Assembly: GCA_903847335.1 (NCBI GenBank)
Contig: CAINDI010000069.1
Coordinates: 1,677 to 65,676, forward strand
Reading direction: 5' to 3'
DNA from: an uncultured Verrucomicrobiota bacterium
Lineage (GTDB): Bacteria > Verrucomicrobiota > Verrucomicrobiia > Palsa-1439
DNA length: 64,000 nt
Of the stretch, positions 15,848 to 16,441 are shown piece by piece; the stretch's first letter is position 1, and every line of letters starts with the position of its first letter. The position numbers and the translations under genes were made by a program. A model generated the notes under the pieces. That model had not been told where the DNA came from and did not search any database. It was given only the letters and a program-made list of their open reading frames with translations.

Positions 15848-16441
15848 CTATTTTGAGGAAGAAACTAGAGCTTTTACGAGGGAAGAAAGCTCACTCGGTG
15901 AATAAGCTTGCCGAACTGGCACACGCAAAATTTTAATTCCCGCTTGACATAAACTAACATCTTTTACGTCATCGCTTTGCTTCCGATCTGGCAGAGCGTG
16001 TGATGAATCGTCTAACTCGATTGCTAAGACGACTTGAACAGTTTGACGGTCACACAGGACAAAATCTAAATGCTTTCGATCAACCCGATTGAGTAACCGT
16101 TGCCGGTCACCAGCAGACAATCCGCGAATCGGTTGCACAACATCCGACAGCCGAACCTTAGAGAACACCACAAAGTCATTCCCGACCGCTTGCAGTAGCA
16201 CACCATAAAAGGAACGTTCCGCCGCCGTCAGAAAATCTTTGCGTCGTTCATAGGAAACACCAGCGACAACAGAACCCCCCTTGCCTTTTGAATTGAGAAT
16301 GGGAAGAACGAATTTGACCAAAACAAAGAAGAAAAAGACTGCTATTAATAGAAGAAATACTTGCACACCAAACGAGATAACGAATGCCGCAGACGTTGTC
16401 ACGTCTTTTCCGTTACACATCCGGGCACACCTCTTCTTCAA
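15848..16441 (-). CDS. membrane-anchored DUF2726/NERD-like (PD-(D/E)xK nuclease-fold) protein, phage accessory gene
   Basis: 197 aa; N-terminal TM helix; core ...RSFYGVLLQAVGNDFVVFSKVRL...VDRKHLDFVLCDRQTVQVVLAIELDDSSH...AGIKILRVP matches the DUF2726 pattern (DFVL.D, IELDG.SH) as I recall it. Confidence 0.5.
   Translation of the reverse strand: MKKRCARMCNGKDVTTSAAFVISFGVQVFLLLIAVFFFFVLVKFVLPILNSKGKGGSVVAGVSYERRKDFLTAAERSFYGVLLQAVGNDFVVFSKVRLSDVVQPIRGLSAGDRQRLLNRVDRKHLDFVLCDRQTVQVVLAIELDDSSHALPDRKQSDDVKDVSLCQAGIKILRVPVRQAYSPSELSSLVKALVSSSK

What the first reader, a model, noticed from the sequence alone, without database searches (positions are those of the whole stretch)
15848..16441. Membrane-anchored DUF2726/NERD-like nuclease-fold gene carried by the prophage in the position usually occupied by the ssDNA-binding gene
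Between the Rep gene and the coat module, where Ff phages encode pV, the element carries a 197-aa protein. It has an N-terminal TM helix and a core that matches my recollection of the DUF2726 family, a PD-(D/E)xK-like restriction-endonuclease fold (DFVLCD...AIELDDSSH). No ssDNA-binding gene is recognisable. A membrane-tethered nuclease-like protein in a filamentous phage could act in superinfection exclusion, as anti-plasmid or anti-phage defence, or as a morphogenetic factor. It is a candidate accessory or moron gene.
Basis: partly seen in the sequence, partly recalled or inferred. Interest (0 to 1): 0.6.

Follow-up and report, generated by a model that had tools for sequence, protein, structure and literature searches.

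The report
Membrane-tethered nuclease gene in filamentous prophage
A 7.2-kb filamentous prophage in a Verrucomicrobia-like genome carries an accessory gene for a membrane-anchored DUF2726 (Vsr-like) nuclease; this gene family is already catalogued in filamentous phages with unknown function, and the phage has its own candidate ssDNA-binding gene elsewhere.

Summary
The ORF is real: 15848-16441, minus strand, with a probable ATG start at 16420 giving 190 aa. It matches Pfam DUF2726 (E=1.5e-30). A confident AF2 model shows one N-terminal TM helix plus a Vsr/DUF559-type PD-(D/E)xK core, and every catalytic-type residue is conserved. The positive-inside rule places the nuclease domain in the cytoplasm. 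NERD is not matched.

The claim that no ssDNA-binding gene is recognisable does not hold. A 92-aa ORF directly upstream of Rep (17206-17484) folds as an OB barrel, and this OB+Rep pair is conserved in related elements.

In those relatives the slot downstream of Rep carries different cargo (ParD-PIN, a CPBP/Abi-like protease, small ORFs). DUF2726 therefore sits in a variable cargo slot and does not replace pV.

DUF2726 is already listed as inovirus family iPF_00070 (176 sequences, function "Unknown") by Roux et al. 2019. Here, 77 of 80 IMG/VR contigs with DUF2726 also carry a Zot-like ATPase, and 3,381 PLSDB plasmids, mostly conjugative, carry a homolog. The closest cellular relatives sit among housekeeping genes.

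My best guess at the role (about 0.4) is a nuclease confined to the membrane that attacks entering foreign DNA, analogous to SNIPE. The main rival is a replication or DNA-processing accessory, as with R6K DDP3. This is a new member of a known kind.

The parts
15848..16420 (-). DUF2726 gene, 190 aa from ATG 16420. The mechanical ORF extends to TTG 16441 (197 aa).
   Evidence: gene calls of 190 aa in other assemblies
16292..16399 (-). Codons for the N-terminal transmembrane helix (residues 8-43 of the 190-aa protein). Predicted topology is N-out/C-in.
   Evidence: AF2 helix 8-43. K/R-rich C-terminal flank: 147 of 152 family members with a TM have more K+R after the helix.
15875..16237 (-). Codons for the DUF2726 nuclease-fold domain (residues 62-182). 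Conserved residues are E68, D119, E135-x-D137-D138, H141 and D150.
   Evidence: Pfam match; invariant columns; fold matches to Vsr/DUF559/DUF2726/restriction enzymes
15797..15817 (-). Terminator-like hairpin just downstream of the DUF2726 stop codon.
   Evidence: consensus scan only
16446..16505 (-). GC-rich long hairpin inside the 210-nt Rep-DUF2726 intergenic region (16442-16651). Candidate origin, packaging signal or attenuator.
   Evidence: ssDNA fold of 16421-16660: -50.9 kcal/mol, z=-3.6. Function not tested.
16652..17203 (-). Small HUH-type rolling-circle Rep, 183 aa.
   Evidence: weak PF23343 REP_ORF2-G2P match; HFHYL motif seen by eye in the translation; 152 homologs
17206..17484 (-). 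92-aa OB-fold protein, the candidate ssDNA-binding protein. It is separated from Rep by 2 nt.
   Evidence: AF2 pLDDT 87 with b1-b2-b3-a-b4-b5 topology; OB-fold hits including gene V protein; always precedes Rep in relatives
17817..18339 (-). Two small ORFs (95 aa at 18052-18339; 83 aa at 17817-18068) at the prophage's upstream end. Possible regulators; no family match.
15499..15624 (-). 41-aa single-TM ORF, pVII/pIX-like small virion or assembly protein (inferred).
   Evidence: sequence read
14919..15587 (-). ORF with a signal-peptide-like N-terminus and a C-terminal TM (about 191 aa in other assemblies). Structural candidate; true start uncertain.
14390..14886 (-). Two major-coat-like genes (77 aa at 14653-14886; 71 aa at 14390-14605) formed by a ~270-nt tandem duplication.
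   Evidence: repeats D1/D2. Other variants lack ~270 nt here: a 164-nt gap in window coordinates with ~108 nt of the variant aligned in both BLAST segments.
12825..14204 (-). pIII-like adsorption protein, 458 aa from the internal Met that begins a signal peptide. The mechanical ORF extends to 14375.
12460..12873 (-). pVI-like membrane protein.
   Evidence: assigned by position and hydrophobicity only
11409..12449 (-). pI/Zot assembly ATPase.
   Evidence: Pfam Zot E=6.4e-19; PHROG 197/1675
11175..11191 (.). Left copy of the 17-nt att-like direct repeat TAGCGGTTATATCTAAT.
   Evidence: Conserved with one mismatch in other strains, and the IMG/VR genome ends at it.
18386..18402 (.). Right copy of the 17-nt att-like direct repeat. 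The prophage spans 7,211 nt repeat to repeat.

Best explanation
The gene is accessory cargo of a 7.2-kb inovirus prophage. It encodes a single-pass inner-membrane protein with a very short N-terminus outside, one TM helix, a flexible linker of about 20 residues, and a cytoplasmic DUF2726 domain. That domain is a Vsr/DUF559-type member of the PD-(D/E)xK nuclease superfamily with an intact metal-binding and catalytic residue set.

The most likely role is a nuclease held at the cytoplasmic face of the membrane, away from the nucleoid. There it would cut DNA as it crosses the membrane: ssDNA of a superinfecting filamentous phage or a conjugating plasmid, or injected phage DNA. This would give the lysogen and the resident phage exclusion or defence. 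The phage's own ssDNA would be shielded by its OB-fold binding protein.

Shown here: family, fold, conserved residues, TM anchor, predicted topology, accessory status, purifying selection.
Inferred, not shown: nuclease activity, substrate, and the exclusion phenotype.
For: Identity:
- Pfam DUF2726 E=1.5e-30.
- AF2 pLDDT 89, with a TM helix plus an a-b-b-b-a-b core.
- Foldseek hits to BstEII, TnsA and I-Bth0305I.
- 28 viral structures at E<=1e-3, named DUF2726, DUF559, Vsr homing endonuclease or restriction enzyme.
- The literature groups VSR, DUF559 and DUF2726 within PD-(D/E)xK (PMC3424549).

Likely active enzyme:
- E68, D119, E135, D138, H141 and D150 are invariant in 84 of 84 inovirus or plasmid copies; D137 in 80 of 84.
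- dN/dS is 0.30.

Topology:
- 152 of 168 family members have an N-terminal TM, and 147 of those have more K+R on the C-terminal flank.

Accessory cargo:
- Relatives with the same OB+Rep module carry ParD-PIN, an Rce1/CPBP-like protein or small ORFs in the slot downstream of Rep.
- 77 of 80 DUF2726-bearing IMG/VR contigs have a Zot-like ATPase, fall into 50 clusters at <70% identity, and carry the gene at varying positions.
- Neighbours are mostly HTH regulators, Rep, Zot and secretin, with occasional methylase, KAP NTPase, MqsA or IS110.
- Vibrio inoviruses carry it after pI/pIV, the region where hypervariable defence cargo is reported (PMC12715192).
- L167 shares only the nuclease domain, which indicates mosaic exchange.

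Precedent and conflict link:
- SNIPE has the same N-out, single-TM, cytoplasmic-nuclease layout. It cuts DNA during injection, and membrane sequestration prevents self-cleavage (bioRxiv 10.1101/2025.11.03.685801).
- DUF2726 is fused to AbiJ-NTD3 in conflict systems (PMC3710099).
Against: - No experiment exists for any DUF2726 protein in the searched literature.
- PADLOC has no standalone DUF2726 model; the only hit is a marginal one to DpdF.
- The closest cellular relatives are not in defence islands. 21 of 24 long metagenome loci lack Zot, and their neighbours are housekeeping genes such as dxs, xseA, enolase and uvrC.
- In three unrelated replicons the gene sits beside the replication initiator, which fits the rival equally well.
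- A constitutive membrane nuclease would sit where the phage's own ssDNA is exported.
- Structure-based matches to solved structures are weak (best E=4e-3), and no solved relative exists by sequence.
Confidence: 0.4

Rival explanations
1. Replicon-own DNA processing. The protein would be a replication or DNA-handling accessory factor acting with Rep at the adjacent hairpin-rich intergenic region or at the membrane assembly site. Examples would be origin distortion or nicking, processing of replicative intermediates, or hand-over of ssDNA.
For: - The gene lies directly after Rep plus a 210-nt region with a strong hairpin.
- In IncF plasmids the TM-DUF2726 gene sits immediately upstream of repA2/repA.
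- In R6K the DUF2726-like DDP3 ('DNA distortion polypeptide 3') gene follows pir-bis and is a distant relative (hhalign 83%, E=9e-6; NCBIfam E=0.0037).
- From my own knowledge, DDP3 was reported to distort R6K origin DNA (Flashner et al. 1996).
- 5 of 77 immediate neighbours in inoviruses are REP_ORF2-G2P.
- About 15% of close homologs carry a topoisomerase-I-type ssDNA-binding Zn ribbon.
Against: - Roughly 2-3% of catalogued inoviruses have the family (176 sequences).
- Relatives with the same OB+Rep module replicate without it.
- Its position varies, and it is often on the strand opposite the core genes.
- DDP3 lacks the catalytic residues that this protein keeps.
- Cellular homologs are solitary genes with no replicon context.
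Confidence: 0.25
2. Selfish free-standing homing-type endonuclease cassette. It would spread between inoviruses and plasmids by cutting cognate sites that lack it, with no benefit to phage or host.
For: - The fold group includes Vsr-type group I intron homing endonucleases.
- Distribution is sporadic, the insertion is intergenic between hairpins, and there is a mosaic breakpoint.
Against: - A conserved membrane anchor is not expected for a homing enzyme.
- There is no extra DNA-binding domain.
- Stable cellular orthologs sit in housekeeping neighbourhoods.
- The gene is retained with dN/dS 0.30.
Confidence: 0.07
3. Addiction or toxin-type effector, or host-directed nuclease. The membrane-sequestered nuclease would damage host DNA when released or over-expressed, stabilising the prophage or modulating the host (for example through SOS).
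For: - The same cargo slot holds a ParD-PIN toxin-antitoxin pair in a relative.
- Removing the TM makes SNIPE toxic, which shows that such proteins can be latent toxins.
Against: - No antitoxin-like partner gene lies next to it.
- Solitary chromosomal homologs are common.
Confidence: 0.08
4. One reading: the protein replaces the missing ssDNA-binding protein (pV) at the canonical position.
For: Only its position between Rep and the coat genes.
Against: - It has a nuclease fold with a TM anchor, not an OB fold.
- A conserved 92-aa OB-fold gene lies immediately upstream of Rep.
- Relatives carry unrelated cargo at this position.
Confidence: 0.02

Closest known systems
Pfam DUF2726 (PF10881), in the Vsr/DUF559 branch of the PD-(D/E)xK phosphodiesterase superfamily
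   Same: Full-length HMM match, same conserved E...D...ExDD..H residues, same core fold, and the usual 160-260 aa architecture with an N-terminal TM helix.
   Different: Nothing structural. The family has no experimentally assigned function.
Inovirus protein family iPF_00070 (Roux et al. 2019, Supplementary Table 5: 176 sequences, annotated DUF2726, category 'Unknown')
   Same: A DUF2726 protein encoded in a Zot-bearing inovirus genome. A ~93-95% identical variant of this phage is already an IMG/VR genome, IMGVR_UViG_3300025162_000497.
   Different: Here the gene sits between Rep and the coat module. In most other inoviruses it lies after pI/pIV or next to HTH regulators, often on the opposite strand.
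TM-DUF2726 proteins of conjugative plasmids (IncF backbone gene between finO/SNase and repA2; 3,381 of 72,556 PLSDB plasmids, 2,904 predicted conjugative)
   Same: Same TM-plus-DUF2726 architecture and catalytic motif, ~35% identity, carried by an element that enters cells as ssDNA, and adjacent to the replication genes.
   Different: Plasmid context rather than phage. The function is equally unknown.
R6K DDP3 (DNA distortion polypeptide 3, NCBIfam NF041452)
   Same: Distantly related fold (hhalign probability 83%), and the gene lies next to the replication initiator.
   Different: DDP3 is 117 aa, has no TM, and lacks the D119, E135 and H141 equivalents. The window protein scores 17.5 bits against a cutoff of 140, so it is not a member.
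SNIPE membrane-bound defence nuclease (Saxton et al. 2025 preprint)
   Same: Predicted N-out, single-TM layout with a cytoplasmic nuclease. The concept of self/non-self discrimination by membrane confinement also applies.
   Different: SNIPE uses a GIY-YIG nuclease plus a DUF4041 DNA-binding domain and contacts ManYZ and tape-measure proteins. There is no homology to DUF2726, and no Pfam hit to those domains here.
Ff gene V protein (ssDNA-binding protein)
   Same: Only the map position between the replication and coat genes.
   Different: Different fold and no Phage_DNA_bind match. The phage's OB-fold candidate is the separate 92-aa ORF upstream of Rep.

Membership tests
DUF2726 (PF10881) | Profile HMM score above Pfam's gathering threshold | tested here: met
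   106 bits against a cutoff of 24.7, E=1.5e-30, profile positions 3-123 of 126
DUF2726 (PF10881) | Conserved acidic/His residue set (E in helix 1; D in strand 2; ExDD..H in strand 3 and the following helix) | tested here: met
   E68, D119, E135, D137, D138 and H141 are present and invariant or near-invariant in the alignments
PD-(D/E)xK superfamily, Vsr/DUF559 branch | a-b-b-b-a-b restriction-endonuclease-like core fold | tested here: met
PD-(D/E)xK superfamily | Metal-dependent phosphodiesterase (nuclease) activity | not testable with these tools
   Requires biochemistry
NERD (PF08378) | Profile HMM match | tested here: not met
   NERD is not among the Pfam hits at E<=0.1
Inovirus iPF_00070 (Roux 2019) | DUF2726-annotated protein encoded in a genome with inovirus pI/Zot morphogenesis and coat genes | tested here: met
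   Zot E=6.4e-19 in the same 7.2-kb element. The element is present in IMG/VR as a UViG. iPF_00070 is listed. Formal clustering into the iPF was not run.
Ff pV-type ssDNA-binding protein (Phage_DNA_bind) | OB fold of about 90 aa; profile match | tested here: not met
   The DUF2726 protein has a nuclease fold and a TM helix and no such Pfam hit
R6K DDP3 (NF041452) | NCBIfam equivalog score above cutoff | tested here: not met
   17.5 bits against a cutoff of 140
SNIPE | DUF4041 plus a GIY-YIG nuclease behind a single TM helix | tested here: not met
   Only the TM and topology are analogous; there are no DUF4041 or GIY-YIG hits
Known anti-phage defence systems (PADLOC v2) | Match to a defence-system protein model | tested here: not met
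   Only a marginal local hit to DpdF (E=0.0047, 12.7 bits)

The most novel reading that the evidence does not exclude
TM-anchored DUF2726 proteins could form a large, unrecognised class of single-gene nucleases confined to the membrane that police DNA at its point of entry into the cytoplasm. The family has about 7,400 clusters at 50% identity. It occurs in chromosomes, has been captured repeatedly by inoviruses, and is present on about 4.7% of sequenced plasmids, mostly conjugative ones. Elements that themselves enter as ssDNA would use these proteins to exclude competitors. This would be a SNIPE-like strategy built on a Vsr-like fold.
Probability: 0.25. Interest if true: 0.7.

Novelty: new member of a known kind. 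Interest (0 to 1): 0.38.

Why it matters
Taken alone, the gene is one more inovirus copy of a catalogued family of unknown function.

Three features make the family worth testing:
- a membrane anchor on nearly all members;
- a fully conserved nuclease active site;
- recurrence on two kinds of element that cross the membrane as ssDNA (filamentous phages and conjugative plasmids, including the IncF backbone of clinical plasmids).

If it excludes incoming DNA, it would add a second, structurally unrelated example of self/non-self discrimination by location. It would also affect how prophages and resistance plasmids compete. If it instead serves replication, it would explain a conserved but unannotated IncF and IncX backbone gene.

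Tried and rejected
- NERD assignment: no Pfam hit.
- pV replacement: rejected after the OB-fold ORF was found.
- Solved-structure relatives by sequence: none.
- Species-representative genomes: no close relative of the protein. A flanking GH57 gene was used to place the host near Verrucomicrobiota, best 58% identity.
- Close relatives of the phage's Rep and Zot in IMG/VR: only the same phage was found.
- Defence-island test on 94 neighbours of the closest cellular homologs: mostly housekeeping families and a few isolated PADLOC hits. There was no matched control, so I read it as 'no evident enrichment'.
- Literature on DUF2726, PF10881, DDP3 and IncF yihA: no functional data.
- Xer/dif reading of the att repeat: there is an XerC-arm-like GTGCGCATGAA beside one copy, but no convincing full dif site. 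Left open.

Full report
**The observation**

The minus-strand ORF 15848..16441 exists (197 aa from a TTG). An ATG at 16420 preceded by a GAAGAAGAGG purine run gives 190 aa. That is the length of the closest database homologs, P0001 (98% identity) and P0002 (89%), and of the gene calls in other assemblies of the same prophage.

Pfam assigns it to DUF2726 (PF10881) at E=1.5e-30, 106 bits against a cutoff of 24.7. Marginal secondary hits go to MTES_1575 and DUF559. NERD is not matched. PHROGs gives phrog_14167, function unknown. NCBIfam gives only a sub-threshold hit to DDP3, and PADLOC a marginal hit to DpdF.

**Structure**

An AlphaFold2 model built on 84 homologs has mean pLDDT 89. It shows one long N-terminal helix (residues 8-43), a lower-confidence linker, and an a-b-b-b-a-b core.

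- Foldseek against PDB puts restriction-fold proteins first (BstEII, TnsA, 3ijm, I-Bth0305I, FAN1), but the E-values are weak (best 4e-3).
- Against predicted viral structures, 28 matches reach E<=1e-3. They are named DUF2726, DUF559, Vsr homing endonuclease or restriction enzyme.
- No solved structure is related by sequence.
- Steczkiewicz et al. group VSR, DUF559 and DUF2726 within the PD-(D/E)xK superfamily and list DUF2726 as unknown with mobile-element associations (PMC3424549).

**Active site and topology**

I aligned 84 copies from inovirus contigs, phage records and an IncF plasmid. E68, D119, E135, D138, H141 and D150 are invariant, and D137 is present in 80 of 84. The window protein has all of them.

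Against an 89% nt-identical variant (L166), dN/dS is 0.30.

Of 168 family members examined, 152 have an N-terminal hydrophobic 19-mer. Of those, 147 carry more Lys+Arg on the C-terminal flank, a mean excess of 3.6. By the positive-inside rule, the nuclease domain is cytoplasmic and tethered to the inner membrane.

**The element**

A 17-nt direct repeat (TAGCGGTTATATCTAAT) at 11175-11191 and 18386-18402 brackets 7,211 nt. Other strains keep it with one mismatch, and the IMG/VR genome ends at it.

All genes are on the minus strand, in this order:
- two small ORFs;
- a 92-aa ORF;
- Rep (183 aa; weak PF23343 match; HFHYL motif seen in the translation);
- a 210-nt intergenic region with a strong GC hairpin (z=-3.6);
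- DUF2726;
- a 41-aa TM ORF;
- a ~191-222-aa secreted/TM ORF;
- two coat-like genes;
- a pIII-like gene;
- a pVI-like gene;
- pI/Zot (Pfam E=6.4e-19).

There is no integrase and no secretin.

The host flanks (GH57, GalT, LarC, Trm112) best match Verrucomicrobiota MAGs, at most 58% identity. The same prophage sits at the same site in JGI metagenome 3300025162 and in several ENA assemblies, always with DUF2726 after Rep where the contig extends that far.

**The ssDNA-binding gene**

The 92-aa ORF (17206-17484) ends 2 nt before the Rep start. Its AF2 model has pLDDT 87 and the b1-b2-b3-helix-b4-b5 topology of an OB fold.

Its Foldseek matches are OB-fold nucleic-acid binders: Stn1, IF1, RPA, Teb1, Rim1 and M13 gene V protein 1ae3. 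Probabilities are 0.77-1.0, but E-values are >=0.03.

Homologs of 52-66% identity sit in the same position directly before Rep homologs in every relative examined. This is a good candidate for the phage's ssDNA-binding protein. ssDNA binding itself is untested.

**A variable cargo slot**

Rep has 152 detectable homologs. In the elements I read, the OB+Rep pair is followed by different cargo:
- ParD-PIN (L172/L173);
- a 65-aa ORF, an Rce1/CPBP-like protease and a 205-aa ORF (L174/L175);
- small unknown ORFs (L176, L181-L183);
- DUF2726 only in this phage lineage.

Several of these relatives have an integrase and HTH/ImmA genes but no Zot, so the replication module is shared with non-filamentous small integrative elements.

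L167 shares only the nuclease-domain half of the gene (85% nt). Its N-terminus and upstream gene are different. GC3 of DUF2726 (0.40) is below that of Rep, OB and Zot (0.52-0.59). All of this points to exchangeable cargo.

**Distribution**

- Roux et al. 2019 already list iPF_00070: 176 sequences, annotated DUF2726, category 'Unknown'. Their catalogue holds about 6,000-10,000 inoviruses.
- In IMG/VR, 127 contigs encode a relative. Of the 80 retrieved, 77 carry a Zot-like ATPase by an iterated local HMM, and the DUF2726 proteins fall into 50 clusters at <70% identity.
- Position varies. It is mostly after pI/pIV or on the opposite strand. Immediate neighbours are chiefly HTH regulators (10), REP_ORF2-G2P (5), Zot (4) and secretin (3).
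- In GenBank phages, 7 of the 8 hits are Vibrio inoviruses. A 2025 study reports hypervariable defence-gene regions after zot in Vibrio inoviruses (PMC12715192).
- In PLSDB, 3,381 of 72,556 plasmids carry a homolog, and 2,904 of those are predicted conjugative. In IncF it lies between finO/an SNase-family gene and repA2-repA, and it has the same TM+DUF2726 build.
- R6K DDP3, encoded after pir-bis, is a degenerate relative without the catalytic residues.
- An exhaustive search finds 7,434 clusters at 50% identity with E<=1e-3.
- The closest cellular relatives (45-50% identity) are chromosomal. 21 of 24 long metagenome loci lack Zot, and their neighbours are mainly housekeeping genes.

**Interpretation**

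Molecular identity is secure: an inner-membrane-tethered, cytoplasm-facing Vsr-like nuclease-fold protein with an intact active site, carried as accessory cargo.

The biological role is inferred. I favour exclusion or defence by a nuclease confined to the membrane (about 0.4), for four reasons:
- the cargo status of the gene;
- the company it keeps in inovirus accessory regions;
- the known conflict-system fusions of the domain (PMC3710099);
- the SNIPE precedent, which has the same topology and where membrane anchoring prevents self-cleavage.

The main rival (about 0.25) is a replication or DNA-handling accessory. The evidence for it is the recurring adjacency to replication initiators in this phage, in IncF and in R6K, the DDP3 relationship, and the topoisomerase-type Zn-ribbon fusions.

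Against defence: there is no defence-island signal for cellular homologs and no experimental data.

Against the rival: the family is rare among inoviruses, and OB+Rep relatives lack it.

Homing-endonuclease, toxin and pV-replacement readings are minor or rejected.

**Verdict**

Interest is moderate. It rests on the open function of a very widespread membrane-anchored nuclease family shared by filamentous phages and conjugative plasmids.

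Noticed in passing
window 14390-14918: Tandem ~270-nt duplication (RBS plus signal-peptide region, 88-97% identical) gives two major-coat-like genes (77 aa and 71 aa) with different mature parts. Other variants of the same prophage (L003, L177, L185, L186) lack about 270 nt here and have only the 71-aa gene.
   Followed up: partly
window 17206-17484 and 16652-17203; loci L172-L176, L181-L183: The 92-aa OB-fold gene plus 183-aa HUH Rep form a conserved two-gene module. 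The module also occurs in small integrative elements that have an integrase and HTH/ImmA genes but no Zot or coat genes, so it is shared between a filamentous phage and non-filamentous elements.
   Followed up: partly
window 11175-11191 and 18386-18402; GC skew across 1-12000: The prophage has no integrase but has 17-nt att-like direct repeats. An XerC-arm-like GTGCGCATGAA lies next to the left copy. Cumulative GC skew peaks near 8 kb, which hints at a terminus/dif-type (Xer-dependent) integration site. No convincing full dif site was found.
   Followed up: partly
window 16442-16651 (hairpin 16446-16505): The intergenic region between Rep and the DUF2726 gene folds strongly as ssDNA (-50.9 kcal/mol, z=-3.6). 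It is a candidate origin or packaging signal of the phage.
   Followed up: partly
L170 8086-9429 (IncF plasmid pEntH10407); L184 28155-28508 and 35123-35593 (R6K): IncF backbones carry an SNase-family 'thermonuclease' gene directly beside the TM-DUF2726 gene, between finO and repA2. R6K carries both an SNase-family gene and the degenerate DUF2726-like DDP3. No function is documented for the pair.
   Followed up: no
L167 463-1128: An 82%-identical DUF2726 protein shares only the nuclease-domain DNA with the window gene. Its TM region and upstream gene are unrelated, so there is a recombination breakpoint between the anchor and the catalytic domain.
   Followed up: partly
window 15848-16420, residues ~84-115 of the protein: Most amino-acid differences between the window protein and its 89% homolog P0002 cluster in the segment between strand 1 and helix 2. 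This could be a specificity loop.
   Followed up: no
window 14198-14326: A 42-aa hydrophobic ORF overlaps the start of the pIII-like gene and is also called in other assemblies. It is probably a small virion-cap or assembly protein.
   Followed up: no
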